Part shown: positions 2 through 62,910 of the stretch, piece by piece | How the letters are laid out: each line of letters starts with the position of its first letter | Position numbering within the stretch: the first letter of the stretch is position 1 | Virus record (IMG/VR): IMGVR_UViG_3300037232_000040 | DNA length: 64,000 nt | From: a virus | Strand: one strand, 5' to 3' | Notes under the pieces: generated by a model | The model's database searches: none | What the model was told of the DNA's origin: nothing | What the model saw: only the letters and a program-made list of their open reading frames with translations | Program-made: the position numbers and the translations under genes

Positions 2-418
2 ATGGCAACTAAAACTTGGATTACCGACGCAAACAATAACCGCTGCTCCATTGATTATTGGGGGTCGCGTGAAGCGGCACAGAAGGCGCTTGATAGCCTC
101 AAAAACTGCTCCGACTGCTCCGACTGCACCGACTGCTCCGACTGCACCGACTGCTCCGACTGCACCGACTGCTACCGCTGCTCCGACTGCTCCGACTGCA
201 CCGACTGCTACCGCTGCTCCGACTGCTCCGGCTGCTTCGGCTGCTCCGACTGCTACCACTGCTCCGGCTGCTTCGGCTGCTCCGACTGCACCGACTGCTA
301 CCGCTGCTCCGACTGCTCCGACTGCACCGACTGCTACCGCTGCTCCGACTGCTCCGACTGCTCCGAATGCTACCGCTGCTCCGACTGCTCCGAATGCAAA
401 TGCAAATCCGATGTGTGA
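2..418 (+). CDS. Cys-x-x tandem-repeat protein, copy 1 (35-aa unique head plus ~32 consecutive C-x-x triplets)
   Basis: ATG at 2, at the window edge, so upstream is unseen. Head is MATKTWITDANNNRCSIDYWGSREAAQKALDSLKN, followed by CSD/CTD/CYR/CSG/CFG/CYH/CSE triplets without interruption. All three forward frames are open through the repeat. This frame was chosen because it carries the ATG and the non-repeat head shared with 3053..3394. Confidence 0.6.
   Translation: MATKTWITDANNNRCSIDYWGSREAAQKALDSLKNCSDCSDCTDCSDCTDCSDCTDCYRCSDCSDCTDCYRCSDCSGCFGCSDCYHCSGCFGCSDCTDCYRCSDCSDCTDCYRCSDCSDCSECYRCSDCSECKCKSDV
105..400 (+). repeat. 9/18-nt tandem repeat (tgc-nnn-nnn)n underlying the Cys-x-x protein
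   Basis: Direct reading: tgctccgac tgcaccgac tgctaccgc ... repeated about 32 times. Confidence 0.9.
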
Positions 419-653
419 TAACCGAACACAAGCGCAGAAGGACGAAGCGGCCGTGCGGAAAGCTGTGGAGCAAACGCGCCGGCTCTGGGAGAGGTATCAG
501 GCCATCTCGCAGGCGGTGGCGCTCCGCCAGCTAGCGGATGATACCGATGATCCCGTGGCAGTCGGGGAGATGGTAGAGTTGCTGGCGCAACAGTGGGTCA
601 CGCTGACGCTGTTGCTGGGGATTTCTGAAAAGGAGAAACGCAATGAACGATGA
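411..653 (+). CDS. hypothetical protein (80 aa)
   Basis: ATG at 411 overlaps the previous stop (ATGTGTGA). It sits in the frame of track ORF 51..653 downstream of the repeat. No motif recognised. Confidence 0.4.
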   Translation: MCDNRTQAQKDEAAVRKAVEQTRRLWERYQAISQAVALRQLADDTDDPVAVGEMVELLAQQWVTLTLLLGISEKEKRNER

Positions 654-1002
654 CGACGAGATCGAGGAAGAGTCCGAACCGAAAGTTTTATGCGATCTCT
701 GCGAGAAGCGCCCCGCCCTAAGCATCACCGACGTAGCTGGGACGAATGCACGAGCCGAGGCCGCGGAGTCGGAGCGCGACCGACAGTACGAGTTCAACGC
801 TGGAATGATTGCCAAACTTGCGGCAGCGGAGTCCCAGGTAGCTGCGCTCACCAGCCACTTGGCTAAAATGGAGTGTCCCGTATGCCGAGAAAGCCTCGGT
901 AGACCCCATTCAGAGTTTTGGAAAGACTGTTCTGACTGCGAAGAGCAACGCGCTGCCCTCTCTCATTCCAAGGAAGCCGCGCCGGGAAAGGATGGATTCT
1001 GA
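643..1002 (+). CDS. hypothetical protein, acidic N-terminus, two CxxC pairs
   Basis: Track ORF of 119 aa. Start overlaps the previous gene end. Contains CDLC and CPVC pairs. Confidence 0.5.
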   Translation: MNDDDEIEEESEPKVLCDLCEKRPALSITDVAGTNARAEAAESERDRQYEFNAGMIAKLAAAESQVAALTSHLAKMECPVCRESLGRPHSEFWKDCSDCEEQRAALSHSKEAAPGKDGF

Positions 1003-1845: not shown

Positions 1846-2028
1846 ATGGCTGACACAGGCATACGAGAAAGTGGAATGACCGGAATCGAGCGTCACTGGT
1901 TCGAGCAAGCCGAGGAGCAGCAAGCCGCTATCGAAAAGTTCTGGCAAGAAATCATCGTGGCCGATATTGACGAGCTACGAAAACTGGAGGAGGCGTTCCG
2001 TGGAAGACCAAACGACACAGCCCACTAA
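1846..2028 (+). CDS. hypothetical protein (60 aa)
   Basis: Track ORF, tightly packed after the previous gene. Confidence 0.45.
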   Translation: MADTGIRESGMTGIERHWFEQAEEQQAAIEKFWQEIIVADIDELRKLEEAFRGRPNDTAH

Positions 2029-2941
2029 CCTGATTCAGAAACTTGCCGAAGCCTGCGATGCGGTTGGAGGGGTCGAAAAGAAGGGCCACAACGACGCCCA
2101 ACGCTACAAGTACGTCAAGGCAGCAGATATTGCCAAGGCGATCCGGCATGAACTGTTTGGCCGGGGAATTGTCATCCTCCAACACGAACATGAGCCCGAA
2201 TACCTTGAGGTCGAACTCACTCCAGATCGGGACAACAAGCCTCGTAAGGCATTCGAGGTTCGCATCCAAATCGAGTTCCGGGTAACAGACGGAACCACGA
2301 GTATTTCGCTGGACGCCTACGGCACGGCCCGCGACTCTGGCGATAAGGCTATCTGGAAGGCCAAGACCGGAGCTCTGAAATACTTCCTGCGAGGCCTGGG
2401 GCTGATCCCTGACGAGAAGGACGATCCCGAACACGACGCACCGGGCGACGAGGAAGCAGGCGAACTCCACAGCGCCACCAAGCAAGACAATACTGTAACT
2501 CTGGCTGGAGTCATAACCGCCGAGAAGCAGAGCGAGAAGGGTATCTGGTACACCATCCACACCTTGACTGCTGAGGGCGAAGCCGATGCCTATGTGCTAT
2601 CTCCGAATGATTCAGGCCGGCTGGCCGAGAAGATTGACTGGCTGGTGAACCTGCGCGTCCGCCCGCTGGTTGTCTCCAAGCCGGGACTGTTCTTTACCCT
2701 GGTTGACGTGCTCACTGTGCGCAAGCCGGAAAATCCGGACTCCGAGCCTGCTACCCAAAACGAGCGCAAGAGCGGGATAACCACGAGGCAGATCAATCGG
2801 CTATACGCCATCAAGAGTTCAAAGGGTATATCGGACACATGGCTGACCGACGCCCTGGGCCGGGAAGGCTTCGAGCATACAAACGATCTAACCCCTCTGG
2901 CCTACAAGCGGATTTGCGATGAAATGGAGTTGATGGCATGA
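1967..2941 (+). CDS. erf: ERF-family single-strand annealing (recombination) protein
   Basis: Motifs QRYKYVKAADIAKAIRHELFGRGIVI and GDKAIWKAKTGALKYFLRGLGLI resemble the ERF superfamily core. The true start may be a downstream GTG near 2000, because the ATG at 1967 overlaps the previous ORF by 62 nt. Confidence 0.7.
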   Translation: MTSYENWRRRSVEDQTTQPTNLIQKLAEACDAVGGVEKKGHNDAQRYKYVKAADIAKAIRHELFGRGIVILQHEHEPEYLEVELTPDRDNKPRKAFEVRIQIEFRVTDGTTSISLDAYGTARDSGDKAIWKAKTGALKYFLRGLGLIPDEKDDPEHDAPGDEEAGELHSATKQDNTVTLAGVITAEKQSEKGIWYTIHTLTAEGEADAYVLSPNDSGRLAEKIDWLVNLRVRPLVVSKPGLFFTLVDVLTVRKPENPDSEPATQNERKSGITTRQINRLYAIKSSKGISDTWLTDALGREGFEHTNDLTPLAYKRICDEMELMA

Positions 2942-3052
2942 GCGAAGTACGCATCGTGGTGCCTCTCCTGAAATAAATATCAAAGTGGGTACGAACGGGG
3001 GATGACAGAGTGATGGCGTGGGAGCATTATGCAGACATCAGGAGGCAATCAG

Positions 3053-3394
3053 ATGGCAACTAAAACTTGGATTACCGACGCAAACAATAACCGCTGCTCC
3101 ATTGATTATTGGGGGTCGCGTGAAGCGGCACAGAAGGCGCTTGATAGCCTCAAAAACTGCTTCGACTGCACCGACTGCTCCGACTGCTTCGACTGCTCCG
3201 ACTGCACCGGCTGCTACCGCTGCTCCGACTGCTCCGACTGCTACCACTGCTCCGGCTGCTTCGGCTGCTCCGACTGCTCCGGCTGCTCCGGCTGCTTCGG
3301 CTGCTCCGACTGCACCGACTGCTCCGACTGCTCCGACTGCTACCACTGCTCCGGCTGCTTCGGCTGCTCCGGCGATATTGGTTTTACGGTGTGA
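3053..3394 (+). CDS. Cys-x-x tandem-repeat protein, copy 2 (~24 triplets)
   Basis: AGGAGG lies 7 nt upstream of the ATG at 3053. The first 109 nt are identical to 2..110. The repeat array and C-terminus then differ (ends CSGDIGFTV). Confidence 0.65.
   Translation: MATKTWITDANNNRCSIDYWGSREAAQKALDSLKNCFDCTDCSDCFDCSDCTGCYRCSDCSDCYHCSGCFGCSDCSGCSGCFGCSDCTDCSDCSDCYHCSGCFGCSGDIGFTV
3159..3372 (+). repeat. 9/18-nt tandem repeat of Cys-x-x copy 2
   Basis: Direct reading: tgcttcgac tgcaccgac tgctccgac ... Confidence 0.9.
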
Positions 3395-3657
3395 GTAGGG
3401 CAGGTGAACTTGCGTGTTGCAACGCAGATAGTTACGCTGCTAAGTGGTTGGAAAATATACAATTAATGAGTGTGTTACAGCACACAAACTTAGTGTTGCT
3501 AAGTTGCATAATGCCTTACGCAAACAGCCTGCCCGTAGTACCGAACACGCGGGGTACCTGCAATAGTTGCCAGCGTGGCGGCATTGTAGTCCTACAACAT
3601 GGTGGCGGAGTGCACGTGCTGGCCATGCACACGGTTGCCAGTGCACAGTGCCCCGGT

Positions 3658-3695
3658 AGCTATAGCATCCCGGAAGCTATAAGCATCCCGGAAGC
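3658..3695 (+). repeat. tandem 17/18-bp repeat in a non-coding leader
   Basis: agctatagcatcccgga is followed directly by agctataagcatcccgga. Confidence 0.8.
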
Positions 3696-3901
3696 CACCT
3701 ATGCCATACCACCCAACCAAGCCGTATGGCCCTGTGAGAATGTACCGGTGGCCCTAGCTACTGAAAAGCGCAAGCTATGCTCCGCCGTGCGCCACAGCAG
3801 CCCCACGGTAAGCGCACAGCCGGTGTATGCGCCTAACCGTACTACCAAGCCCTGCTGCGGTGGCAGTGGTGCGCACACCAAGGAATGCAAGGCGGTGCAG
3901 C

Positions 3902-4897
3902 ATGGCTAGCCCACACAGTGCCACCGCAGCCAAGCGCATACAGGCCGCACAGCGCAGCGGCAAACCGGCTAAGGCAGCTAAGGCAGCTAAGGCAGCTAAG
4001 CTGCTAGCCAAAGCTACAAAGCCCGTACCAAAGGTTACACACGAAATACTTGGTCCTGATATAGTTGAAGACTTCCTGCCTGAGTACCCACAGATAGGGG
4101 CTGGAATGCTGCTGCCTTCTATACTTACTGCGCCTACCGTAAGTAAGGCAGCACAGAAACGCGCTGAGAAAGCAGCGGCCCTGCAAGCCAAGGTTGCAGC
4201 CGCGCAGCAAACCGCTAAGCAGCGGTTGCTGGTAGTGGGCGACCACGTTGTAGAGTGCCGCCCATTTGCGGGGCAGCTTAAGCCCGAACCGGAGCCTGAA
4301 ACGCAAGTGGTGCCGCGTAAGCCTGCCACTAGGGTGGACGTTAACGTGTACCAAGTGTACCGAGACATTAACGGTGTGGCCTACTTGCGCGTAGGCCAAA
4401 GCAAAGACGGCGCAATGCTGGTAGTGAACAAGGGCTTTCAGGTGGAGCTAGTGGACATGCCCAACGACACCATCAAGGCTTTGAATCTACAGCCCGTAGT
4501 GGGTAGTAGCATATTGGATGCTGCAGAAAAGTTGTTGCACCCTATGAACGACCAAGCTACAATTTCTTTGCGTGCAAAAACACAACTGATTTTAATACTT
4601 GAAAACGAGGAGTTACAAAACATGGCTACCAAGAGCGTTGAAGCGAAGAACAAACCGGCGAAGTTTGCCAGTGTTAATGCCCCGGCTGCCAAGGGCAGCA
4701 AAGCCACCAAACCTGCCAAGGCTGAGAAGCCTGCTAAGGTTGAGAAGCCTGCTATGGTTGAGAAGCCTGCTATGGTTGAGAAGCCTGCTAAGGCCGCGAA
4801 GAATGCCACTAGCGGTGAACCAGCATCGCAACGCCCCAAAGCAGACAAAAACGACGAACTACGGGGCAGCCGCTTCGGCTACCTGTACAACAGCTAA
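3902..4897 (+). CDS. Lys/Ala-rich histone-H1-like protein (putative DNA-binding)
   Basis: ATG at 3902 within track ORF 3827..4897. N-terminal KPAKAAKAAKAAKLLAKATKP and C-terminal (EKPAKV/EKPAMV)x4 KAAK tails flank a globular middle. Confidence 0.55.
   Translation: MASPHSATAAKRIQAAQRSGKPAKAAKAAKAAKLLAKATKPVPKVTHEILGPDIVEDFLPEYPQIGAGMLLPSILTAPTVSKAAQKRAEKAAALQAKVAAAQQTAKQRLLVVGDHVVECRPFAGQLKPEPEPETQVVPRKPATRVDVNVYQVYRDINGVAYLRVGQSKDGAMLVVNKGFQVELVDMPNDTIKALNLQPVVGSSILDAAEKLLHPMNDQATISLRAKTQLILILENEELQNMATKSVEAKNKPAKFASVNAPAAKGSKATKPAKAEKPAKVEKPAMVEKPAMVEKPAKAAKNATSGEPASQRPKADKNDELRGSRFGYLYNS
4724..4795 (+). repeat. 18-bp x4 in-frame tandem repeat (EKPA[KM][VA])
   Basis: gagaagcctgctaaggtt / gagaagcctgctatggtt x2 / gagaagcctgctaaggcc. 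Confidence 0.9.
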
Positions 4898-4921
4898 AAA
4901 GATTAAGGAGACTAGTTCTTT

Positions 4922-47790: not shown

Positions 47791-48165
47791 ATGAGCAAGA
47801 GCACGATCAGTACCTTCCAGCTTTTCGAGATGTTCCCGACGCCTGAGTCGGCACGGTTGTACCTCGAATCGCGCATCTGGCCCGATGGTCCGTTCTGCCC
47901 TGAGTGCAAGAGCCGTGAGCGCATCGGTAAGCAGCCCAAAGTTGGCTTCTATCGCTGCAACGCCTGTAAGCTCGATTTTACGATTCGTACTGGCACCATC
48001 TTCGAGCGGTCGCACATCCCGCTTCACAAATGGCTTTACGCCATGTATCTGCTCGTCACTGCTCGCAAGGGTATTTCCTCTCTGCAACTTGGAAAGGAAA
48101 TTGGAGTTACACAGAAATCCGCGTGGTTTATGCTGCAACGGCTCCGCGAGGCTAGAAACGGGTGA
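47791..48165 (+). CDS. IS1595-family transposase N-terminal Zn-ribbon + HTH domain only (no DDE domain), paralog A
   Basis: FPTPESARLYLESRIWPDGPFCPECKS...FYRCNACKLDFTIRTGTIFERSHIPLHKWLYAMYLL..ARKGISSLQLGKEIGVTQKSAWFMLQRLR matches the IS1595 zinc-ribbon/HTH module. The ORF stops after 124 aa. Confidence 0.75.
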   Translation: MSKSTISTFQLFEMFPTPESARLYLESRIWPDGPFCPECKSRERIGKQPKVGFYRCNACKLDFTIRTGTIFERSHIPLHKWLYAMYLLVTARKGISSLQLGKEIGVTQKSAWFMLQRLREARNG

Positions 48166-48229
48166 GACCATGTTGCAGTGTGCCGCGCGTGAGTTTTTCG
48201 GGCGCGCTCCGGATGGTGTCAAAGCCCAA

Positions 48230-48264
48230 GAGCCGGAAGATGAGGAGTCCTGATATGAAACCGA
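48230..48264 (+). repeat. 35-bp exact repeat (partner 1444..1478)
   Basis: Identical string spanning a stop codon, RBS and start. Confidence 0.9.
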
Positions 48265-49055
48265 CATTCTTTGACCGCAAAGCAGTTGTCTACAAGCTGA
48301 CCGATGCCAACTCCCAGACCTACGACAAAACTCAATGGGGCGAAGGCGTGACCCACAGGACAAACGGAACCGATGAGCTGTGCGGGCCGGGATGGTTACA
48401 TGCTTATACCCATCCGTTGCTTGCGGTTTTCCTCAATCCGATACATGCGAATTTTGTCAATCCGATTTTGTGGGAAGCGGAGGCCGACGGGAAAACTCTT
48501 TCCGATAAAGGACTAAAAGTCGGCTACTCCGAGATCACCACAATACGCCAAATCCCGTTACCCGTTGTAACCACTTTCCATCGAATCCGCTTTGCTATAC
48601 TTTGCGCCCAATCCGTGTATAAAAACTCGGATTGGCTTGCTTGGGCCGACAACTGGCTATCCGGTAAGGACCGCTCGGCGGAGGCGGCGGCGGCGGCGGA
48701 GGCGGAGGCGCGGGCGGCGTGGGCGGCGGAGGCGCGGGCGGCGTGGGCGGCGAAGTGGGCACCGGGGGCGGCGTGGGCGGAGGCGCGGGCGGCGTGGGCG
48801 GCGAAGTGGGCACCGGGGGCGGCGTGGGCGGAGGCGCGGGCGGCGTGGGCGGCGAAGTGGGCACCGGGGGCGGCGGCGTGGGCGGCGTGGGCGGCGGGGG
48901 CGAAGTGGGCGGCGGAGGCGGCGGGGGCGGCGGCGCGGGCGGCGGAGTGGGCGGCGGAGGCGGATATAGACCTTATCGCAATCGCACAGCAGGTCGGCGA
49001 ATTCGATACTGACGTTCCGAAGGTCATTTGCGACAATTTTGCTGGCAGATATTGA
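48255..49055 (+). CDS. two-part protein: conserved-looking N-domain plus Ala/Trp tandem-repeat region
   Basis: ATG at 48255. N-domain reads YKLTDANSQTY..TQWGEGVTH..LCGPGWLHAYTHPLLAVFLNPIHANF. It is followed by (EARAAWAAKWAPGAAWA)x3 within a ~95-aa A/W/E/R tract, then a unique tail. Confidence 0.6.
   Translation: MKPTFFDRKAVVYKLTDANSQTYDKTQWGEGVTHRTNGTDELCGPGWLHAYTHPLLAVFLNPIHANFVNPILWEAEADGKTLSDKGLKVGYSEITTIRQIPLPVVTTFHRIRFAILCAQSVYKNSDWLAWADNWLSGKDRSAEAAAAAEAEARAAWAAEARAAWAAKWAPGAAWAEARAAWAAKWAPGAAWAEARAAWAAKWAPGAAAWAAWAAGAKWAAEAAGAAARAAEWAAEADIDLIAIAQQVGEFDTDVPKVICDNFAGRY
48676..48962 (+). repeat. extremely GC-rich tandem repeat, core 51 bp x3 (48729..48881)
   Basis: gaggcgcgggcggcgtgggcggcgaagtgggcaccgggggcggcgtgggcg starts at 48729, 48780 and 48831. 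Confidence 0.9.
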
Positions 49056-49115
49056 GCAAGCATACCAACAGCTTGACGTTATTGTTGAGCGTATTAAACG
49101 GAGGGTACAAATCTC

Positions 49116-55413: not shown

Positions 55414-56407
55414 GGCCGCAACGCCAAAAGCGGAGAAGGTCGCACCATCAACCTACCTCGCAAAGCTGAAGCAAGAAAGGATTGATCTCGATAATGAGTG
55501 CGAAGCCTTAGACCAACGGATCAGCGATATGGACGATAAGCGGAAGCTGTTGTTGCGGCGAAAGCAACTTATCGCGAAAATCAACGAAGAGCAGACCTAC
55601 CTCGCAAAGCTGAAGCAAGAAAGGATTGATCTCGATAATGAGTGCGAAGCCTTAGACCAACGGATCAGCGATACGGACGATGAGTGGAAGCCGCTGTCAG
55701 ACAAAAAGGCGTTGCTGAACTTGCGGCGGAAGCAACTTATCGCGAAAATCAACGAAGAGCAGAAAATCATTAGTTATGAAGAGCAATGGGTAAAAACTCC
55801 GCGCACCGAACCTAAAAACAAGATCATTATCGACTCCTATAAAAATAAGTGGGACTACCAGCGTGAGTACTTTATGAAAGCTCTGGAACCCGCGCGAGAT
55901 GCTTGGCTAGATCACGCCAATGAAATTTGCAAGACGGGTGAGCTGTGGGATTTCGAGGAACTCGCGAAGGCGGTTGTCTGGAATGAGTGCAATGAGAAGT
56001 TCCGACCGGAGGAATTTCCCAACGAGTTTATCCGCATCGAAGTTCCCGGCGCTGGCAAGTATTTAATCAAGAACACGGCCGCCGCAATTTACAAGATTCT
56101 AAAATCCGCGCCCACTGCATTCTCGAAACCCAAGTGCAACCAGCATCCCGAGGGATATCACAAAATCCTGGGCGAGAACGCCAAACAGGGGCGCCCCAAC
56201 CCAGAACTCAACCCTGAGAAGCTAATCTTGTTCCATGAGAAGCAGATCGCAGAACTTCGTGACAAGCGCAAGAAACTAACAGACGCAAAGGACGCCTCCT
56301 TCAATATAGACGCAAAGGACGTCTTCAATATAGACGAACAGATCAAGCAAGGCGAGAGCGACTTACGAGAAGCTCGCAATCTCAAAGGAGGATTCAAGTG
56401 CGTATAA
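55385..56407 (+). CDS. coiled-coil protein with an internal 144-bp tandem duplication
   Basis: GTG at 55385 gives VRITKETAAKAA, paralogous to the start of 56398. An alternative ATG is at 55361. TYLAKLKQERIDLDNECEALDQRISD occurs twice. Confidence 0.55.
   Translation: MRITKETAAKAATPKAEKVAPSTYLAKLKQERIDLDNECEALDQRISDMDDKRKLLLRRKQLIAKINEEQTYLAKLKQERIDLDNECEALDQRISDTDDEWKPLSDKKALLNLRRKQLIAKINEEQKIISYEEQWVKTPRTEPKNKIIIDSYKNKWDYQREYFMKALEPARDAWLDHANEICKTGELWDFEELAKAVVWNECNEKFRPEEFPNEFIRIEVPGAGKYLIKNTAAAIYKILKSAPTAFSKPKCNQHPEGYHKILGENAKQGRPNPELNPEKLILFHEKQIAELRDKRKKLTDAKDASFNIDAKDVFNIDEQIKQGESDLREARNLKGGFKCV
55451..55762 (+). repeat. tandem duplication, unit 144 bp (second copy carries a ~24-bp insertion)
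   Basis: acctacctcgcaaagctgaagcaagaaaggattgatctcgataatgagtgcgaagcc... starts at 55451 and 55595. Confidence 0.85.
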
Positions 56408-56610
56408 CGAAAGAACAGGCTGCGGAAGCAGCGCAGGCGTTAATAGACAGATTCTTCGGCAATAAAACTAGCCGGCGAGTGTGGGTACATATTCCTCCCC
56501 ATGCAACTGACACCGATGTAATCCTGATGGACTACATCAAACAGTCTGCCGCTGAGATCGCAGAGTTGAGGGCTGAATTGGAAGCGCTCTACACAAAGGT
56601 ATCGTTTTAA
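56398..56610 (+). CDS. hypothetical protein (70 aa)
   Basis: AGGAGGA RBS with GTG start. Begins MRITKEQAAEAA. Confidence 0.5.
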   Translation: MRITKEQAAEAAQALIDRFFGNKTSRRVWVHIPPHATDTDVILMDYIKQSAAEIAELRAELEALYTKVSF

Positions 56611-56654
56611 CTAATGTTTACTGTGTAATTACGCAGTTGCATAGCTGCAGGGTA

Positions 56655-56672
56655 CTAGGTATACTTACCTAG
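56655..56672. promoter_or_regulatory. perfect 7-bp inverted repeat CTAGGTA-N4-TACCTAG upstream of 56716
   Basis: Direct reading. Function unknown. Confidence 0.25.
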
Positions 56673-56715
56673 GGCCAGCAAACTACCCAACTAACAAAAG
56701 AAGAGGGATGTAGCC

Positions 56716-56967
56716 ATGAGCATGCTAGACGCGAAAAAGATTGGCGAAATGGCACTTTACTACTCAAGCTGCGCGGAGCGAGACCGCCAGTACGCAGCCG
56801 GAGAAAGACAAGGGTCGCGCTTGTTAGAGATATTCCGGGCGGCCATCATTGATACAATTGCTCAATGCGAGTCCGAGGAGCTGAGAGAGAGAGGCTGCGC
56901 GAAGCTTGGAGCGAGGCGCGACGGCCTCACCGTGTCGAAGAAAGCAGGTGCCCATGCCCAAAGTTAG
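56716..56967 (+). CDS. hypothetical protein
   Basis: Track ORF of 83 aa. Confidence 0.45.
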   Translation: MSMLDAKKIGEMALYYSSCAERDRQYAAGERQGSRLLEIFRAAIIDTIAQCESEELRERGCAKLGARRDGLTVSKKAGAHAQS

Positions 56968-57361
56968 CGGCAATGAGGAGCTTATCAAGCTGCCTAAGAC
57001 TGACGGTGCCTGTGCTGACCTGCTGTACACTACCCGGCAGGCTCGCTACAAACTGCAGCACGAAGTTGCTAAGCTGCAAGCTGTAGAAACCGCCATAGAG
57101 CAGCGCTTTATTGATACGTTAAGCGCTAAGGACAGTACGGGCGTGGCCGGTAAGGTAGGCCGCGCACAGGTGCAGACAAAGATAGTCCCCGTGGTGGAGG
57201 ATTGGCCTAAGCTATATGCGCACATTAAGAAGACAGGCGAGTTTGAGCTTATGCAGCGTCGCTTGGGTGAGACTGCTGTAAAAGAGCGCTGGGACGCTGA
57301 TAAGCAAGTGCCCGGTGTAGGCCGGTTTACTGCTAAGAAAGTAAGCTGTACCAGGGTGTAG
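56954..57361 (+). CDS. hypothetical protein (135 aa)
   Basis: ATG at 56954 within track ORF 56906..57361. Confidence 0.5.
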   Translation: MPKVSGNEELIKLPKTDGACADLLYTTRQARYKLQHEVAKLQAVETAIEQRFIDTLSAKDSTGVAGKVGRAQVQTKIVPVVEDWPKLYAHIKKTGEFELMQRRLGETAVKERWDADKQVPGVGRFTAKKVSCTRV

Positions 57362-57367
57362 AAGAAC

Positions 57368-57601
57368 ATGACTAACACAGCAATGGACGGGCCGGTCGAA
57401 ATCAAGATTTGCGAAACCTGTGCGGTGGTGGATGTGAGAGTTGAAATGAGGGTCGGCCTGATCGGGCCTGTGCTGTGTGCGGTTTGCTCAGAAATGCTTA
57501 AGGTGACTACCGACAGTAAATATTTCTTCGGGCTATGGCAGGCAGACCAGGTGTTGGAGAACGAACGCATCGCTGAAAAGAAGCGCCTTCTGGGAGATTA
57601 A
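57368..57601 (+). CDS. hypothetical protein with two CxxC pairs
   Basis: Track ORF with CETC ... CAVC. Confidence 0.45.
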   Translation: MTNTAMDGPVEIKICETCAVVDVRVEMRVGLIGPVLCAVCSEMLKVTTDSKYFFGLWQADQVLENERIAEKKRLLGD

Positions 57602-57755
57602 ATGCGGTACCTACGAAACTGGGGGAAGAACTTGTACAGCGCAGACCGGAGCTAGCTGAATGCTGTTGTGATAACAACCCCGTAGTACCATGCCCGGTGC
57701 ATGATGCTACTTACAAAGACATGCAGCTTGAAGATATTCTGCATAAGGAGCATTG

Positions 57756-57986
57756 ATGCTAGGCAAGAAGGGCAAGGATGTAATCACTGGGTTTGAGGGC
57801 GTCATTATTGGCAAGGTTAAGTACCTTACCGGCTGTAACCAGTATCTGCTTAGTGGGCCATCCTTAAATGGCAAGGTGGGTGAGAGCAACTGGTTTGATA
57901 CCGACCGCGTGGAAATATTGGACGGCGACGCCGTGGTACTGCTGCGCACTTACAACGGCAGTGACATGCCTGCACCTATTCACTAG
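57756..57986 (+). CDS. hypothetical protein
   Basis: AAGGAG lies 5 nt upstream of the ATG at 57756. Confidence 0.5.
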   Translation: MLGKKGKDVITGFEGVIIGKVKYLTGCNQYLLSGPSLNGKVGESNWFDTDRVEILDGDAVVLLRTYNGSDMPAPIH

Positions 57987-58026
57987 ATAGTTTTAACGAG
58001 GTACTTACAAAGGAGTTCTAAAAACT

Positions 58027-58284
58027 ATGTTGTGCGAACAGCTCGGTTGTAACAGCTATACTGACGGTGTTTCGTCGCTATGCACGCAGCACCAGCCCCA
58101 GCCCCAGCCCTCAGAGCGGCTTATATTTCCTAAGGAGAAGCTGCTTACTGATCTGTTTGGCGGCCAGCCCCAAGCCCAGGAGGTGGTGCTGCCTGTTGGG
58201 AAGGGTGCCACCCCGGTTGACACAGCTGTACCACCTATCCCAGCAGCGGATGGTGCAGTGATCAAAGGTAAGGGCAAGCTCTAA
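58027..58284 (+). CDS. hypothetical protein
   Basis: Track ORF of 85 aa. Confidence 0.4.
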   Translation: MLCEQLGCNSYTDGVSSLCTQHQPQPQPSERLIFPKEKLLTDLFGGQPQAQEVVLPVGKGATPVDTAVPPIPAADGAVIKGKGKL

Positions 58285-58358
58285 GCTACAGGGGGCCACC
58301 AGTTTAAGGAGTAGTAACCAGGGTTGATTTTAAGAGGGTACTAACAGGAGAAAACAAG

Positions 58359-59147
58359 ATGGTAAATAAGAAAGTGGTAAGTGGTAAAGGTACCAGTATG
58401 GTGAAGTGGGACGAGAAGTTTGCCGCGATGGCCAAGAAGAGCGCTAAGATTGTAAGCGGCATTGGTGGTGACAGCAACTTTATAAAGTTGCAGGGCGGCC
58501 AACTGCAGTACCAAGGTGCCGCCGTGCCCGGTAACAGCATGGACGTGGTAATTATTGACCACGTGTTGGTGAACATGTTGTACAAGGATAAGTTTGACTC
58601 TAACAACCCCACCAGCCCGATATGTTTTGCTTTTGGGGAAACCGTGGAGGAAATGGTGCCGCCTAAGGAAGCACATGAGCCGCAGAACGATGGTGAAGGC
58701 TGTGCCACTTGTCCAAATAACGAGTGGGGCACTGCCGACACAGGCCGGGGTAAGCGCTGCAAAAACAGCGTCAGGTTGGCCATGATCAGCATTGAGGATT
58801 TGAAGGACATACCCGAGGCCGAAGTGGCATTTATGCACGTGCCGGTTACTAGCGTGAAGTTGTGGGCTGGGTACGTGCGCATGTTGGACGACACGCACCA
58901 CCGTCCATCGCTGGGTGTGGTTACGCGCATTACTGTAGTGCCGGACAAGGACACACAGTTCAAAGTTAAATTTGACTTGGTTGAACTGACTGAAGACAAC
59001 GAGCAGATTGCCGCACTGTTTGCAAAGTACGAGCAGGTAAACCAAACAATCCGGTTCCCGTTTGTGTTTGTTGAAAGTGAAAACAAACCCGTGGCCAGCG
59101 GCAAGGCGCGGAAGTTTGCGGCACTGGCAGGCAAGGGCAGGAAGTAA
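58359..59147 (+). CDS. hypothetical protein of the replication module (CxxC...C motif, basic C-tail)
   Basis: Track ORF of 262 aa with GEGCATCPNNEWGTADTGRGKRCKN. An ssDNA-binding role is only a positional guess. Confidence 0.55.
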   Translation: MVNKKVVSGKGTSMVKWDEKFAAMAKKSAKIVSGIGGDSNFIKLQGGQLQYQGAAVPGNSMDVVIIDHVLVNMLYKDKFDSNNPTSPICFAFGETVEEMVPPKEAHEPQNDGEGCATCPNNEWGTADTGRGKRCKNSVRLAMISIEDLKDIPEAEVAFMHVPVTSVKLWAGYVRMLDDTHHRPSLGVVTRITVVPDKDTQFKVKFDLVELTEDNEQIAALFAKYEQVNQTIRFPFVFVESENKPVASGKARKFAALAGKGRK

Positions 59148-59186
59148 AGAGTAGGCTACTTGGCAGTTGTGTACAGTTTAACTAGG

Positions 59187-59216
59187 GGCAGCGTAGCTGG
59201 TGCGCTGCCTCTGTTT
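59187..59216 (+). terminator. hairpin plus T-rich tail after 58359..59147
   Basis: ggcagcg / cgctgcc is a 7-bp stem with a 9-nt loop, followed by tctgttt. Confidence 0.35.
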
Positions 59217-59247
59217 AAACTTGGAGAAGCAAATCCATAGGAGGATT

Positions 59248-59442
59248 ATGACAGCAAGGGAAATTGATAAAGCTTTGGACAATTGGCTTGTACTTAACAA
59301 GGTGCTGCGTACGATAGACATAGATGATTGTAAGGAGATGCTAAGTACAGAGCAGGCTGGCAAACGCCGCTTGAATTACATGCTGCGCATTTATGGGCGG
59401 TATAACCGGCTACGTAGTGACCGCGAGAGGAGGGAATTATGA
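59248..59442 (+). CDS. hypothetical protein (64 aa)
   Basis: TAGGAGGA RBS with ATG at 59248. Confidence 0.45.
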   Translation: MTAREIDKALDNWLVLNKVLRTIDIDDCKEMLSTEQAGKRRLNYMLRIYGRYNRLRSDRERREL

Positions 59443-59591
59443 CAGCATCAGAAATACAAAGCAACATAGAACGGTTGCGTAGTACAGCTTCACCTAGTCG
59501 GCTAAGAATCGTATAGGTGCAGCAACTAAGAAACGCTGGGCTAACAAAGCATATAGGGAAAAGCTGCGTAAAGCGCACCAAAAAGTAAACA

Positions 59592-61478
59592 ATGTCTGTT
59601 CCTAAACCAATAGTTCTGGATTTTGAAACTGAGGCCATTGAGCGCAGACCGCAGTACCCACCCAAGCCCGCAGGGGTTGCCATTAAGTGGTCTGCACAGA
59701 AAATTAACAAGTACTACAGCTGGGCACACGACAGTGATAATAACTGTACCAAGGCGGATGCGCAAAAGGTGCTGTGTGATGCGTACCGTAGTGGTGAACC
59801 GCTGTTGTTCCAAAACGGTAAGTTTGATACCGATGTAGCAGCCACGCATATGGGCTTGCCGGTGCCTAGTTGGGAGCGCATACATGATACTTTGTTTTTG
59901 CTGTTCCTTGAGAACCCGCACGCCACTAGCCTGAGCCTTAAGCCCAGTGCCCAGCGTTTGCTGGGTATAAAGCCCAGCGAGCGGGATGCTTTGCACACAT
60001 GGATAACCACCAACATACCGGCAGCCAAGCGCAAGCCTAGCGAGGCCGGTGCTTACATTGCGCGTGCACCGGGCAGCTTAGTAGGCCGTTACGCACTGCA
60101 GGGCGATGTACGCAGCACTGAGAAACTGTTTAGGCACCTGTACCCCATCATAAGTAAACGTGGGATGCTAGAAGCTTACGACCGTGAGCGGCATTTAATG
60201 CCTATACTGCTGCGCAATGAGCAAGAAGGTATACGTGTAGATTTGCCGCGCATGGAGTGTGACTACGCTGTGTACTGTGCGGCCTTGGAAAAGGCTGATA
60301 ATTGGCTGCGTAAGACACTAGGTGTGCCGGGGCTTAACCTGGATGCTGATAAAGACGTGGGTAATGCCTTGGATGCCAGCGGCACGGTTACAGAGTGGGT
60401 GTACACCAAACCCACTAAGGGACACCCACAGGGCCAACGCAGCGTAGCTAAGAAGAACATGACACTGGACATGTTCAACAATGCTAAAGTGGCCAGCGTA
60501 TACGGTTACCGCACGCGGCTTAAGACTTGCCTGAGTATGTTCTTTACTCCATGGCTGGAGCAGGCGCGGGCCACCGACGGGTTTATACACACCAGTTGGA
60601 ACCAAGTAAGGCAGACGCACGGTAATGAGAACATGGCCGGGGCGCGTACCGGGCGGTTAAGCAGCACGCCTAACTTCCAGAATATACCGAAGATGTTTGA
60701 AGACCGTGGTGATGGGTTTGTACATCCTAAGTTTTTGAACGTACCACCGCTACCGCTTATGCGCAGCTACCTGCTGCCCGATAAGGGCGAGGTATGGGGC
60801 CACCGCGACTATAGCCAGCAGGAGCTACGCATACTGGCCCACTTTGAAGATGGTGCTTTGTTACAGGCGTACTTAGCCGATCCTAAGCTGGACGTGCACG
60901 GGTTGGTGCACAGCATGATTTTGGAAAAGGTGAAGCGCGACTTTATACGCCTGCGCGTTAAACAGTTTGTGTTTCAGAAAATATACGGCGGTGGGTGGCC
61001 TGCGCTAACAGCCGCGTTGGGCTGTGATATGCCCACGGCCAAGCTGGTAGTAGCGGCCATGATGCAAGCGTTACCCGGTTACGAAACATTAGAAGCTGAC
61101 ATTAAGGCTACGGGCCGGGCCGGGCTGGCTATACGTACTTGGGGCGGCAGAGAGTATTATACAGAGCCGCCTAAGTTTGTGAAGAAGTATGGCCGAGTAA
61201 TGACGTTTGACTACAAGCTGATGAACTACCTTATTCAAGGTAGCGCCGGAGATTGCACTAAGGAGGCACTGATACGGTACGACGAACACCCTAAGCGCGA
61301 GGCACGTATGTTGGTAAGTGTGCACGACGAAATTAACAGCAGCATGGCCAAGAAGCGCTTTAAGCTGGAGATGGAACTACTGCGTGAAGTAATGCAAAGT
61401 ATTCAGTTCGATTTGCCAATGCTTTCGGAGGGAAAGTTTGGTAATGACTGGGGTCATCTAACCAAGATGGAGGCATAG
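59592..61478 (+). CDS. family A DNA polymerase with 3'-5' exonuclease domain
   Basis: Exo I is VLDFETEA. Motif A is DYSQQELRILAH, motif B is RVKQFVFQKIYGGG and motif C is SVHDEI. Confidence 0.9.
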   Translation: MSVPKPIVLDFETEAIERRPQYPPKPAGVAIKWSAQKINKYYSWAHDSDNNCTKADAQKVLCDAYRSGEPLLFQNGKFDTDVAATHMGLPVPSWERIHDTLFLLFLENPHATSLSLKPSAQRLLGIKPSERDALHTWITTNIPAAKRKPSEAGAYIARAPGSLVGRYALQGDVRSTEKLFRHLYPIISKRGMLEAYDRERHLMPILLRNEQEGIRVDLPRMECDYAVYCAALEKADNWLRKTLGVPGLNLDADKDVGNALDASGTVTEWVYTKPTKGHPQGQRSVAKKNMTLDMFNNAKVASVYGYRTRLKTCLSMFFTPWLEQARATDGFIHTSWNQVRQTHGNENMAGARTGRLSSTPNFQNIPKMFEDRGDGFVHPKFLNVPPLPLMRSYLLPDKGEVWGHRDYSQQELRILAHFEDGALLQAYLADPKLDVHGLVHSMILEKVKRDFIRLRVKQFVFQKIYGGGWPALTAALGCDMPTAKLVVAAMMQALPGYETLEADIKATGRAGLAIRTWGGREYYTEPPKFVKKYGRVMTFDYKLMNYLIQGSAGDCTKEALIRYDEHPKREARMLVSVHDEINSSMAKKRFKLEMELLREVMQSIQFDLPMLSEGKFGNDWGHLTKMEA

Positions 61479-61479
61479 T

Positions 61480-62061
61480 ATGTTCTGCACAACTGTAGAA
61501 GCAACCAAGGGCGAGCAGCTTAAAGTAATTCGGTGGCAGTACAAACCGGAGACTAAGCTCCTGGCAGGCCGTTGGGTACCGCTGGCTGCTTACTTAACCG
61601 TTAGCTTAGACAAGGCACCGCGTAGGTTGGCTGCGCAGCCGTGGGTGCTGGAACTGCAGCAACGGCAGAACGCCGCTGCACAGCTCGCTGAGGCCGGTAA
61701 GGGTATCGGCACACAGCAGGCCGTTACAGAGCCACCAGATGCTCCCTGCGTACACTGCGGTAAGCCTCGTAAGGGCAACCACTACCAAACTGGGGCTTGC
61801 TTTACTGGGGACCACAGTTACCAGCCGCGAGTGCGGGGTATCGAGGAAATACTTGCACAGCTGGTAGAAAGTCAAGAGGACGCTGCACTAGATGAACTGC
61901 TAGACCTAACTGTAGAAGTTGTGCCCTATGCAGGTGTGGACGTTAGTACAGATGGCGAGCAGGTGCACCGTGACGTAGGTGAAGTACTTAACCAGCAGGG
62001 CTGTGTAGTACACACTGAGCCTGGCCGTATTTTTAGCATAGAAGAAAAGGAGAGTAAGTAA
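61480..62061 (+). CDS. hypothetical protein
   Basis: Track ORF of 193 aa, starting 2 nt after the polymerase stop. Confidence 0.55.
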   Translation: MFCTTVEATKGEQLKVIRWQYKPETKLLAGRWVPLAAYLTVSLDKAPRRLAAQPWVLELQQRQNAAAQLAEAGKGIGTQQAVTEPPDAPCVHCGKPRKGNHYQTGACFTGDHSYQPRVRGIEEILAQLVESQEDAALDELLDLTVEVVPYAGVDVSTDGEQVHRDVGEVLNQQGCVVHTEPGRIFSIEEKESK

Positions 62062-62062
62062 A

Positions 62063-62737
62063 TTGGTCATACCCGTACTGCAGAAAATATTGGCTTGGAG
62101 TTTCAGCCGGTATATGGATTACCACAAGTGCCCAGCGCTGGCAAAGTACAAGCATGTGCTCAAGTTGAAAGAGCCGGATAACGAAGCCATGGCTGGTGGT
62201 ACGCTAGCCCATAAACAAGCGGAGGACTACACCACTGGCAAGTTAAAGAAACTGCCCGAAAGATGTAAACAGTTTCCTAAGGAGTTTGCCGCGCTTAGAA
62301 AAGCCAAGGCACTGGTAGAGCAGCAGTGGGCATTTAATCGTAAGTGGGAAGAGGTAAGTTGGTTTGCTAAGGACGCGTGGCTGCGTATTAAAGTGGACGC
62401 GCACACTTTGCAGGGTACTAAGGTGCACATTGTTGATCACAAGACAGGCAAGGAGCATGAACCTGACCATGGCTGGCAACGCGACCTATACGCGCTTGGA
62501 GCTTTGCTTAAGTACCTATGGGCTACAGAAGTAGTAGCGGAGCATTGGTATCTAGATGCGGGTGTGGCGCGTGGCGGCGACGTTGTGTACACATTTAAGG
62601 ACTTGCCCCGGCTTAAGCAGGAGTGGGTAGACCGCACTGCCAACATGCTGCAGGATACGCGGTTTGCGCCGTGCCCGGGGCATTACTGCAAGTGGTGCCA
62701 TTTCCGCCGTGATAATGGAGGACCATGCAAATTTTAG
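62063..62737 (+). CDS. PD-(D/E)XK Cas4-like exonuclease
   Basis: N-terminal Cys (YHKCPA). Nuclease core is RIKVDAH ... IVDHKTGK. C-terminal CPGHYCKWC cluster. Confidence 0.75.
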   Translation: MVIPVLQKILAWSFSRYMDYHKCPALAKYKHVLKLKEPDNEAMAGGTLAHKQAEDYTTGKLKKLPERCKQFPKEFAALRKAKALVEQQWAFNRKWEEVSWFAKDAWLRIKVDAHTLQGTKVHIVDHKTGKEHEPDHGWQRDLYALGALLKYLWATEVVAEHWYLDAGVARGGDVVYTFKDLPRLKQEWVDRTANMLQDTRFAPCPGHYCKWCHFRRDNGGPCKF

Positions 62738-62910
62738 TCGGGTTTATATCCGGGGCGTTATTGACTTTGTTTGCCGTAGGCTGGCACCGTGCTTATTTTG
62801 TAGCCACGGTTACAAACCGGGTTAGAAACGAGCAATGGTGTATTGATTCTGCATGGGCTAAGTCTCACAGTAGCTTACCGCCACCGCCTAACGAGTGTGT
62901 AGTGAAATGA
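62725..62910 (+). CDS. small membrane protein
   Basis: Track ORF with TM segment ILVGFISGALLTLFAVGW. Confidence 0.35.
   Translation: MQILVGFISGALLTLFAVGWHRAYFVATVTNRVRNEQWCIDSAWAKSHSSLPPPPNECVVK

What the first reader, a model, noticed from the sequence alone, without database searches (positions are those of the whole stretch)
2..418. Phage proteins that are almost pure Cys-x-x triplet arrays (about 25% cysteine)
Two genes (2..418 and 3053..3394) encode the same 35-aa head, MATKTWITDANNNRCSIDYWGSREAAQKALDSLKN. It is followed by about 32 and about 24 uninterrupted C-x-x triplets, with x-x being SD, TD, YR, SG, FG, YH or SE. There is no spacer or second domain.

A cysteine at strict period 3 over about 100 residues does not match metallothioneins (CxC/CxxC clusters). 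It also does not match the CXXX or Cys-every-fifth repeat peptide precursors, or any phage protein class I can name.

Possible roles:
- a metal- or Fe-S-loaded or disulfide-laddered solenoid;
- a redox or metal sink used during infection;
- a decoy substrate.

The array length differs between the two copies while the head is nucleotide-identical, so the array is evolving by slippage. The Cys frame is supported by the ATG, an AGGAGG RBS at copy 2 and the shared non-repeat head. However, all frames are open in the repeat: the others read APT... forward and RSS... reverse.
Basis: partly seen in the sequence, partly recalled or inferred. Interest (0 to 1): 0.75.

Follow-up and report, generated by a model that had tools for sequence, protein, structure and literature searches.

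The report
Phage Cys-x-x repeat-rod early proteins
Two small early genes of a ~65 kb tailed phage encode a folded 35-residue cap followed by 33 or 24 Cys-x-x repeats; they belong to a very large family that nobody has studied, in which this cysteine array takes the place that beta-helix repeats occupy in related phage proteins.

Summary
Window 2..418 (138 aa) and 3053..3394 (113 aa) share a head that is identical for 109 nt. It is followed by 33 and 24 uninterrupted Cys-x-x units (25% and 22% Cys).

The Cys frame is the translated one. In 79 of 79 related loci the head and a conserved C-terminal domain are both in that frame. Different lineages use different synonymous codons yet keep Cys at 99.4% of periodic positions.

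The proteins are not orphans.
- They hit PHROG 15341 (function unknown) at E=4e-22.
- 1393 representative protein clusters and 433 IMG/VR viral contigs hold relatives.
- Typical members are head + (C-S-x) array of 6-58 units + a ~95 aa C-terminal domain, which both window copies lack.

The window copies equal one minimal head+array module, a unit that occurs several times in tandem in larger proteins. The same C-terminal domains are elsewhere fused to pentapeptide or hexapeptide/bactofilin-like beta-helix repeats, so the array sits where beta-solenoid repeats sit in related proteins.

No maturase or other partner gene is conserved nearby. The neighbours are mostly recombination genes. Function is unknown. 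My best guess, at low confidence, is a metal-stapled, length-variable rod that binds a host factor early in infection.

Array length among near-identical phages runs from 2 to 33 units. That is either real hypervariability or assembler collapse.

The parts
2..418 (+). Copy 1 gene: head + 33 Cys-x-x units + tail KSDV + stop (138 aa, pI about 4.07)
   Evidence: PHROG 15341 E=4.4e-22. It lies directly downstream of the SNF2 gene once the circular junction is restored from L001.
2..106 (+). Head of copy 1 (35 aa, MATKTW...DSLKN), a beta-beta-alpha-alpha cap
   Evidence: AF2 pLDDT 93-97, E6-8 E14-16 H17-20 H23-31. Conserved across the family: W6, D9, N13, S16, G21, A26, L30, L33.
107..403 (+). Array 1: 33 x (TGC-NNC-NNC), with an 8-unit (72 nt) internal block duplication
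   Evidence: All 34 Cys codons in the array-and-tail region are TGC.
411..653 (+). Context: downstream 80-aa ORF whose ATG overlaps the stop of copy 1 (ATGTGTGA), so probably translationally coupled. No family hit.
1967..2941 (+). Context: ERF-family single-strand annealing protein lying between the two copies
   Evidence: Pfam PF04404 E=6e-8
3040..3045 (+). AGGAGG ribosome-binding site of copy 2
3053..3394 (+). Copy 2 gene: identical head + 24 Cys-x-x units + tail DIGFTV + stop (113 aa)
   Evidence: PHROG 15341 E=2.3e-17.
3158..3373 (+). Array 2: 24 units. It shares 4-5-unit blocks with array 1.
59592..64000 (+). Context: DNA polymerase A, a 193-aa ORF, a PDDEXK exonuclease and the start of an SNF2 helicase. 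This is the module that runs into copy 1 across the window boundary.

Best explanation
Identity (shown). The two genes are paralogous copies of the minimal 'head + Cys-x-x array' module of a very large, uncharacterised family of early proteins of tailed phages (PHROG 15341). They are translated in the Cys frame. The array is a slippage-prone tandem repeat. Its length is unstable, but its Cys, and largely its following Ser, are held by selection on the protein.

Mechanism (inferred).
1. The 35-aa head is a small folded N-terminal cap that nucleates the first repeats.
2. The array folds into an elongated rod or solenoid stapled by metal-thiolate sites built from overlapping CxxC motifs. Zn is the most likely metal in a reducing cytoplasm.
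3. The array is the functional equivalent of the pentapeptide and hexapeptide beta-helices that occupy the same position in proteins sharing the same C-terminal domains.
4. The protein is made early, alongside the phage recombination and replication genes. It acts on its own by binding, as a surface mimic or decoy for a host DNA-handling or defence protein, in the manner of pentapeptide-repeat DNA mimics or lambda Gam. Repeat number tunes its length or capacity.
5. In this phage lineage the C-terminal effector domain is absent and the acidic rod (pI about 4.07) works alone.

My confidence by tier: identity and frame about 0.95; rod or solenoid about 0.5; metal stapling about 0.45; DNA-mimic or anti-nuclease role about 0.15-0.2.
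For: Frame and selection:
- In 79/79 loci the head and the C-terminal domain are both in the Cys frame.
- 9 lineages use TGT throughout their array, the others TGC.
- Ser is encoded by TCG, TCC, TCT or AGC, yet each single array is nearly uniform in codon choice.
- 99.4% of periodic positions are Cys and 79% of second positions are Ser.

Family size: 583 hits, 433 IMG/VR contigs, 1393 representative clusters, PHROG 15341.

Head + array is an autonomous module:
- P0240, P0242, P0241 and P0244 each carry several head+array units in tandem.
- Short forms with the same head and conserved tails recur in independent contigs.

Cap role of the head: AF2 gives the head pLDDT 93-97. The first 5-7 units have pLDDT 93 falling to 64, with a beta-bridge every third residue.

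Beta-solenoid position:
- The type-A C-terminal domain follows pentapeptide repeats in 19 Ralstonia phage records (PF00805 E=2e-55).
- In 80 cellular-genome loci it follows a Cys-x-x array in 34 and pentapeptide repeats in at least 29.
- The type-B C-terminal domain follows pentapeptide repeats (Staphylococcus KSAP7, Listeria LWP01) or hexapeptide/bactofilin-like repeats (Mannheimia, Chryseobacterium phages).

Acts alone: no partner gene is conserved in 83 loci.

Neighbourhood: recombination genes lead the neighbour census, with YqaJ 7, RecT 6, AAA_24 5, ERF 4 and PDDEXK 3 of 135 ORFs. An ERF gene lies between the two window copies.

Charge: the window arrays carry -0.5 net charge per unit, and 75% of arrays in the family are net negative.

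Chemistry: CxxC is the canonical metal-binding knuckle (established knowledge). The nearest PDB sequence is the Cys-laddered beta-helix 1EZG.
Against: - AF2 gives no confident fold for most of the array (pLDDT 32-43 for residues 58-138).
- Foldseek finds nothing significant.
- The 1EZG match is dominated by composition bias (bias 38.8 against score 26.6).
- Metal binding is purely inferred.
- 15% of arrays are net positive and the median charge is only -0.16 per unit, so DNA mimicry cannot be a general property of the family.
- Recombination genes are common in phage early regions anyway, and only a minority of loci show them within 3 kb.
- Occupying the same position as beta-helix repeats does not prove a similar structure or function.
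- The heads of the Cys-x-x proteins and the pentapeptide proteins show no detectable homology.
Confidence: 0.4

Rival explanations
1. Unstructured cysteine sponge. The array has no defined fold and acts as a metallothionein-like sink for metal ions (Zn, Cu, Fe) or for oxidants and electrophiles during infection. Capacity scales with repeat number.
For: 22-25% Cys. AF2 finds no confident fold for most of the array. Extreme length variability is tolerated. No partner genes are conserved.
Against: The array is bounded by a conserved folded cap, and its first units are predicted to dock on that cap. In related proteins the same position holds rigid beta-helices, which are not sponges. Ser at position 2 is strongly conserved, which a simple thiol sink would not need. 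No metallothionein family is hit in Pfam or NCBIfam.
Confidence: 0.2
2. Decaying remnants. The window copies are truncated, non-functional leftovers of full-length genes that lost the C-terminal domain.
For: Both copies lack the C-terminal domain that 85 of the 120 best homologues carry. The short tails differ and are altered by indels between alleles. Array length is unstable.
Against: The head is 100% identical between the two copies and across independent contigs. Each allele class keeps its own tail and stop (KSDV, DIGFTV, SSDNGLRWEYAKGR) while unit number varies. Both copies have strong RBSs. No frameshift or internal stop occurs in 297 and 216 nt of slippage-prone repeat. Head+array is a reused module in multi-module proteins.
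Confidence: 0.1
3. RiPP precursor. The head is a leader peptide and the (C-S-x) array is a core that is heterocyclised to thiazoles and oxazoles, as in heterocycloanthracin, sonorensin or microcin B17.
For: Cys-Xaa-Xaa repeats define heterocycloanthracin precursors, which also vary between strains in units of three residues (PMC2674419). There are faint TIGR03601 hits at E=8.2 and 0.52. Cys-Ser dipeptides are classic bis-heterocycle sites (my own knowledge).
Against: The HMM score is 7.1 bits against a cutoff of 35. None of the 30 window ORFs scanned against Pfam (all but a few of those >=250 aa plus the small early genes) is a YcaO, cyclodehydratase or dehydrogenase. None appears among the recurrent neighbour families of about 70 loci, and no neighbour is conserved. 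Most members carry a folded ~95 aa domain after the array, or several head+array modules in one protein, which is unlike RiPP precursors. The head is predicted as a folded domain packed on the array. Arrays reach 58 units.
Confidence: 0.04
4. Wrong frame or DNA-level element. The 9-nt repeat functions as DNA or RNA, or is translated as the Ala-Pro-Thr or another open frame, and the Cys reading is incidental.
For: Five of six frames are open. GenBank annotates the Ala-Pro-Ile/Val frame in Flavobacterium phage FL-1. Gene callers often call reverse-strand ORFs over the array.
Against: The head and the C-terminal domain flank the array in the Cys frame in 79/79 loci. Synonymous codons differ between lineages while Cys and Ser are kept, which would change the alternative-frame peptides. 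The FL-1 Cys frame restores a full family member.
Confidence: 0.02

Closest known systems
PHROG 15341 and the metagenomic family 'head + (C-S-x)n + type-A C-terminal domain' (e.g. P0012, P0003; Flavobacterium phage FL-1)
   Same: Homologous head, with the same Cys-x-x array, the same early-gene context and the same slippage behaviour.
   Different: The window copies stop a few residues after the array and lack the ~95 aa C-terminal domain with the H-x-C-x3-H-C-R-A-G-W motif. The family has no known function.
Phage pentapeptide-repeat proteins carrying the same C-terminal domain (Ralstonia phage RSK1 ORF34, RsoP1IDN gp04, PQ43W_58; Staphylococcus phage KSAP7 orf118 for the type-B domain)
   Same: Same overall layout: a small N-terminal cap, a variable-number tandem repeat, then the same C-terminal domain. 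They are early genes near recombination genes, and repeat number varies widely, from about 7 to 29.
   Different: Period 5 (A-D/N-L-x-x) and a known quadrilateral beta-helix, against period 3 built on Cys. There is no Pfam pentapeptide hit for the window proteins. The heads are not detectably homologous.
Heterocycloanthracin/sonorensin bacteriocin precursors (TIGR03601; Haft 2009, PMC2674419)
   Same: An N-terminal non-repeat region followed by Cys-Xaa-Xaa repeats that vary in number between strains.
   Different: Those have about 13 Cys, mostly Cys-Gly-Gly, in 50-90 aa peptides that depend on a cyclodehydratase, a dehydrogenase and a docking protein. Here there is no such enzyme, the HMM score is far below cutoff, the arrays reach 58 units, and family members usually have a folded domain after the array.
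Tenebrio molitor antifreeze protein (PDB 1EZG), a Cys-laddered right-handed beta-helix
   Same: Short Cys/Thr/Ser/Asp-rich repeats with regularly spaced Cys lining a solenoid core. It is the best real PDB sequence match (E=3.8e-5).
   Different: That protein has a 12-residue coil with Cys every 6 residues and is a secreted, disulfide-bonded insect protein. The match is largely compositional. The window proteins have no signal peptide (read from the N-terminal sequence; no predictor was run) and are presumably cytoplasmic.
Metallothioneins
   Same: Small, about 25% Cys, no aromatic core, and expected to bind metals through thiolate clusters.
   Different: Metallothioneins use CxC, CC and CxxC clusters in two short domains without strict periodicity. 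There is no hit to any metallothionein family. Here a folded cap precedes a strictly periodic, hypervariable array.

Membership tests
PHROG 15341 (phage protein family, function unknown) | Significant match to the family profile | tested here: met
   E=4.4e-22 (copy 1) and 2.3e-17 (copy 2), profile positions 8-137 of 276
Head + Cys-x-x array + type-A C-terminal domain family | Conserved N-terminal head (W..D.N.N..S....G...A...L..L..C) | tested here: met
   phmmer hits at 44-89% identity; conserved columns W6 D9 N13 S16 G21 A26 L30 L33
Head + Cys-x-x array + type-A C-terminal domain family | Uninterrupted Cys-x-x array directly after the head | tested here: met
   33 and 24 units; the family range is 6-58
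Head + Cys-x-x array + type-A C-terminal domain family | ~95 aa C-terminal domain with the H-x-C-x3-H-C-[RK]-[AG]-G-W motif | tested here: not met
   tblastn of four C-terminal domain types against the whole window gives no hit below E=0.005. The window copies are short forms, like P0004 and P0036.
Heterocycloanthracin/sonorensin TOMM precursors (TIGR03601) | HMM score above the curated cutoff (35 bits) | tested here: not met
   7.1 bits, E=8.2 for copy 2; nothing for copy 1
Heterocycloanthracin/sonorensin TOMM precursors (TIGR03601) | Repeated Cys-Xaa-Xaa core | tested here: met
   definition from PMC2674419
Heterocycloanthracin/sonorensin TOMM precursors (TIGR03601) | Cyclodehydratase, dehydrogenase and docking protein encoded in the same genome | tested here: not met
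   None in 30 window ORFs scanned with Pfam, and none among the recurrent neighbour families in about 70 loci. Host-encoded enzymes cannot be excluded.
Pentapeptide repeat proteins (PF00805) | Pfam match and an A(D/N)LXX period-5 repeat | tested here: not met
   No Pfam hit for the window proteins; the period is 3. Positive control: PQ43W_58 scores E=2e-55.
Metallothioneins | Match to a metallothionein family; CxC/CC cluster pattern | tested here: not met
   No Pfam or NCBIfam hit at E<=10. There is only one CxC (CKC), at the end of copy 1.
Metallothioneins | Stoichiometric thiolate-cluster metal binding | not testable with these tools
   Requires purified protein with ICP-MS and UV-vis
Insect beta-helical antifreeze proteins (1EZG type) | 12-residue TCTxSxxCxxAx coil and a secreted, disulfide-bonded protein | tested here: not met
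   The period here is 3, not 6/12. The N-terminus has no hydrophobic signal sequence (read directly from the sequence). The sequence hit at E=3.8e-5 has bias 38.8.
CXXX-repeat and Cys-every-fifth peptide precursors | Cys period of 4 or 5 | tested here: not met
   Strict period 3; no NCBIfam hit

The most novel reading that the evidence does not exclude
The Cys-x-x array is a previously undescribed metal-templated (Zn or Fe-S) solenoid fold, a 'cysteine ladder'. Phages use it interchangeably with pentapeptide and hexapeptide beta-helices as a length-tunable rod. It mimics nucleic acid or otherwise blocks a host nuclease or defence protein during early infection. Its repeat number changes by slippage fast enough to act as a contingency locus in the arms race with the host.
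Probability: 0.2. Interest if true: 0.85.

Novelty: new variant of a known kind. Interest (0 to 1): 0.62.

Why it matters
- **A widespread module with no known structure or function.** It is among the most cysteine-rich and most strictly periodic protein repeats I know of. It is present in more than a thousand protein clusters, in hundreds of viral contigs, and in prophage-like regions across many bacterial phyla. I found no structure, function or paper for it in the libraries searched here.
- **A concrete route to experiments.** The finding that it swaps with beta-helix repeats in front of the same C-terminal domains gives a testable handle on both structure and function. It also links the array to a second uncharacterised class, the phage pentapeptide-repeat proteins with this C-terminal domain.
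- **An annotation and assembly problem.** The array breaks assemblies, misleads gene callers into wrong-frame, reverse-strand or truncated calls, and has produced wrong GenBank annotations. The family is therefore systematically under-recognised.
- **Possible wider interest.** If the array proves to be a metal-stapled rod, it would be a new repeat fold and a possible building block for protein design.

Tried and rejected
1. **Nucleotide-level constraint on the repeat.** The first four loci all used TGC-TCC-NNC. This was rejected when 79 loci showed TGT-only arrays and four or more Ser codons between lineages.
2. **Homology between the Cys-x-x head and the pentapeptide-protein head.** I suspected this by eye. 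It was rejected: hmmsearch gives -0.9 bits, inside the shuffle null, and hhalign gives probability 0.1. Type-B heads (NNNRWS...) do score above the 99th percentile of shuffles, at 7-11.5 bits. FL-1-type heads do not.
3. **C-terminal domain encoded elsewhere in the window, or downstream in another frame.** Not found.
4. **'Stand-alone' C-terminal domain genes among the top hits.** In 3 of 3 loci checked they were gene-calling truncations or frameshifts inside the array.
5. **Structure-based annotation.** Foldseek against PDB and BFVD for both models gave no informative hit. Profile and sequence searches against PDB gave nothing for the C-terminal domain.
6. **GenBank phage DNA or protein hits to the window.** The first 6 kb of the window, the full protein and the head alone gave none, partly because of the low-complexity filter.
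7. **A GTGTTGC motif downstream of copy 2.** It is not enriched in the window.
8. **Literature.** Seven full-text searches found nothing on this family.
9. **General DNA mimicry from charge.** It fits only partly: array charge varies in sign across the family.

Full report
**1. Observation**

The window contains the two ORFs as described, at 2..418 (138 aa) and 3053..3394 (113 aa).
- Their first 109 nt are identical, covering the 35-aa head MATKTWITDANNNRCSIDYWGSREAAQKALDSLKN plus the first Cys codon.
- The head is followed by 33 uninterrupted Cys-x-x units in copy 1 (107..403) and 24 in copy 2 (3158..3373).
- Tandem Repeats Finder reports period 9, 32.6 and 24.0 copies, scores 394 and 276.
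- Cys makes up 25.4% and 22.1% of the proteins, against 1.7% in the window's other long ORFs.
- Every Cys codon is TGC. Units are TGC-NNC-NNC, with an 8-unit (72 nt) block duplicated inside array 1 and 4-5-unit blocks shared between the arrays.
- Copy 2 has AGGAGG at 3040..3045. The upstream region of copy 1, recovered from a near-identical contig, has AAGGAG.
- Five of six frames are open across the arrays; one reverse frame has stops.
- There is no third head or array in the window.

**2. What the window is**

It is a tailed phage.
- It has a large terminase, a portal, a GTA-like distal tail module, a primase-helicase, DNA polymerase A and a PDDEXK exonuclease.
- Contig L001 is 100% identical to window 55595..64000. 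It shows that window position 1 follows position 64000 after about 705 nt, the end of an SNF2 helicase gene.
- The genome is therefore about 64.7 kb and circularly permuted in the assembly, and copy 1 lies directly after the PolA, PDDEXK and SNF2 genes.
- Between the two copies lie small Cys-containing ORFs and an ERF-family recombinase. A ParB-like gene and a DUF3310 gene follow.

**3. Family**

Pfam and NCBIfam give nothing apart from a faint TIGR03601 hit at 7.1 bits. PHROG 15341 (function unknown) matches at 4.4e-22 and 2.3e-17.
- A search of 5.8 billion proteins gave 583 hits. An exhaustive search of 1.84 billion representatives gave 1393 at E<=1e-3 and 226 at E<=1e-10.
- The typical member is 190-240 aa. 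It has the same head, a (C-S-x) array, a short linker, and a conserved all-helical domain of about 95 aa carrying H-x-C-x3-H-C-R-A-G-W.
- Across the 120 best hits the arrays have 6-34 units. Cys fills 99.4% of periodic positions, and position 2 is Ser in 79%. Position 3 is D, G, R, N, Y or H, in that order of frequency.
- In 79 viral loci the arrays reach 58 units.
- The type-A C-terminal domain alone recruits 3072 proteins, 433 IMG/VR contigs, and prophage-like loci in Alpha-, Beta- and Gammaproteobacteria, Bacteroidota, Acidobacteriota, Planctomycetota, Patescibacteria, Cyanobacteria and others.
- The window copies lack that domain, and it is not encoded anywhere in the window.

**4. Reading frame and mode of evolution**

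In 79 of 79 loci the head and the C-terminal domain are both in the Cys frame. Nine lineages use TGT for every Cys and the rest use TGC. Ser is TCG, TCC, TCT, AGC, TCA or AGT across lineages, yet any single array is almost uniform.
- This combination means protein-level selection for Cys and Ser, with concerted evolution by slippage or unequal exchange inside each lineage.
- It disposes of my interim idea of a nucleotide-level constraint.
- Alleles of the window's own genes in other contigs keep the identical head and the identical tails (CKCKSDV; DIGFTV; SSDNGLRWEYAKGR) but have 2, 4, 7, 10-11 or 13 units.
- Either the arrays are hypervariable in the population or short-read assemblers collapse them. 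About 16 of 80 viral contigs end in or next to the array.
- Gene callers frequently truncate the gene or call other frames. GenBank annotates the Ala-Pro-Ile/Val frame in Flavobacterium phage FL-1, where the Cys frame restores a full family member apart from one frameshift.

**5. Modularity**

The array is combined with at least three kinds of head and at least four kinds of C-terminal domain. Large proteins carry several head+array units in tandem (P0240, P0242, P0241, P0244).
- Head+array is therefore an autonomous module, and the window proteins are one such module each.
- Type-B heads (DKNNNRWSI...KSKTLVNC) score above the 99th percentile of shuffles against the type-A head model. FL-1-type heads do not.

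The C-terminal domains are also found behind other repeats.
- The type-A domain follows genuine pentapeptide repeats (PF00805, E=2e-55) in 19 Ralstonia phage records, with about 7 to 29 repeats.
- Among 80 cellular-genome loci, 34 have a Cys-x-x array and at least 29 have pentapeptide repeats in front of the type-A domain.
- The type-B domain follows pentapeptide repeats in Staphylococcus phage KSAP7 and Listeria phage LWP01.
- The type-B domain follows hexapeptide/bactofilin-like beta-helix repeats in Mannheimia and Chryseobacterium phages.

The Cys-x-x array thus occupies a position otherwise filled by beta-solenoids. The heads of the Cys-x-x and pentapeptide proteins are not detectably homologous.

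**6. Structure**

- AF2 on a full-length homologue gives mean pLDDT 84.7. The head and the C-terminal domain are above 90, the first five or so units are at 86-93, and the rest of the array is low.
- AF2 on window copy 1 gives the head 93-97, residues 34-57 falling from 93 to 64 with an isolated beta-bridge every third residue, and residues 58-138 at 32-43.
- Foldseek finds nothing significant in PDB or BFVD beyond uncharacterised stand-alone copies of the C-terminal domain.
- By sequence, the best real PDB match is the Cys-laddered beta-helical antifreeze protein 1EZG at E=3.8e-5, but that score is dominated by composition.

**7. Context**

No neighbour is conserved across 83 loci. A Pfam census of 135 flanking ORFs is led by recombination genes (YqaJ 7, RecT 6, AAA_24 5, ERF 4, PDDEXK 3). 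No peptide-maturation enzyme appears among the recurrent families. None of the 30 window ORFs scanned against Pfam is a YcaO or related enzyme.

**8. Interpretation**

Shown:
- the genes are real, are in the Cys frame and are under protein-level selection;
- they are members of a huge uncharacterised early-gene family;
- they correspond to one minimal head+array module;
- the array is slippage-driven.

Inferred:
- the head is an N-terminal cap;
- the array forms an elongated repeat structure, probably stapled by metal-thiolate sites from overlapping CxxC motifs, because the cytoplasm is reducing and AF2 sees no metal-free fold;
- it acts as a binder, mimic or decoy by analogy with pentapeptide-repeat DNA mimics and with Gam-type inhibitors that sit beside phage recombinases.

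The window arrays are strongly acidic (-0.5 per unit, pI about 4.07). Across the family the charge varies in sign, so DNA mimicry is at best lineage-specific.

The rivals are an unstructured metal or redox sponge, decaying remnants, a RiPP precursor, and a wrong-frame or DNA-level element. They are weighed separately. The last two are strongly disfavoured.

**9. Comparison with known families**

The HMM, the leader and the maturase criteria all fail. The window proteins are not pentapeptide-repeat proteins, metallothioneins or antifreeze-type beta-helices by any defining test. Seven full-text searches found no paper on the family.

**10. Verdict**

- The window genes are new short-form members of a catalogued but uncharacterised family. 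The family as a whole represents a new variant of tandem-repeat, solenoid-position phage protein.
- Interest is moderately high because the module is extreme, abundant, mis-annotated and now experimentally tractable.
- The mechanism remains a low-confidence inference.

Noticed in passing
window 42318-42582: Perfect tandem repeats, (TGTGTTG) x15 followed by 21-nt and 76-nt repeats at 100% identity. They lie in the gap between the leftward structural module and the rightward early genes. This could be an origin, packaging or regulatory region.
   Followed up: no
window 48676-48963: G-rich degenerate tandem repeats (periods 9, 30 and 51; GGCGGAGGC-like) overlapping ORFs on both strands (48162..49055 + and 48524..49063 -). 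Coding status and frame are unclear.
   Followed up: no
window 3827-4897 (repeats at 3968-4000 and 4712-4793): A 356-aa protein with Lys/Ala-rich tandem repeats, (AKA)n and (PAKVEK/PAMVEK)n. It has no Pfam or PHROG hit and looks like a histone-H1-like basic low-complexity protein, just downstream of copy 2.
   Followed up: partly
window 643-1467: The small early ORFs between copy 1 and the ERF gene are themselves rich in CxxC pairs, such as CDLCEKR...CPVCRE...CSDCEE. One 43-aa ORF resembles a CGNR zinc finger (E=7e-4), and another contains CEECGKYLDDCDCDE. This early operon is unusually rich in putative zinc-binding peptides.
   Followed up: partly
window 1 and 64000; L001 9331-10035: The window is a near-complete, circularly permuted genome of about 64.7 kb. 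The missing ~705 nt is the 3' end of the SNF2 gene. The contig break falls exactly at the duplicated head, and L001 shows a different arrangement with at least two heads (a recombinant or an assembly chimera).
   Followed up: yes
L087 (Flavobacterium phage FL-1, KY421186.2 26567-27271): GenBank CDS APZ82901 is the wrong (Ala-Pro-Ile/Val) frame of an array of about 46 Cys-x-x units. The real gene is split by one frameshift inside the WHSCETTHCRAGW motif, so the C-terminal part is annotated separately (APZ82918).
   Followed up: yes
L088 (Ralstonia phage Adzire NC_054462, record end): The linear genome record ends inside the pentapeptide-repeat array of the homologous gene, so that gene is truncated and annotated only from an internal start. 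Repeat arrays appear to set assembly or record boundaries here too.
   Followed up: partly
L091, L092, L093: Two contigs, L091 and L092, show one to several frameshifts inside the array. I guessed they are long-read assemblies only from their 'contig_NNNNN' record names, which I did not check. In the intact locus L093 the gene caller kept only the last 102 aa and called a reverse-strand ORF over the array. Many '~100 aa' database entries for the C-terminal domain are artefacts of this kind.
   Followed up: yes
L039/L040/L042 about 4527-5300; neighbour census: Hexapeptide/bactofilin-like and YdcK-type beta-solenoid repeat proteins occur as separate genes within 3 kb of Cys-x-x genes in a few loci. 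Several kinds of repeat-rod proteins therefore co-reside in these early regions.
   Followed up: no
window 3652-3695: An 18-nt tandem repeat (CCCGGAAGCTATAAGCAT x2.5) a few hundred bases downstream of copy 2, in a stretch for which I identified no convincing gene (only the mechanical ORF 3391..3909, which has no homology support, spans it).
   Followed up: no
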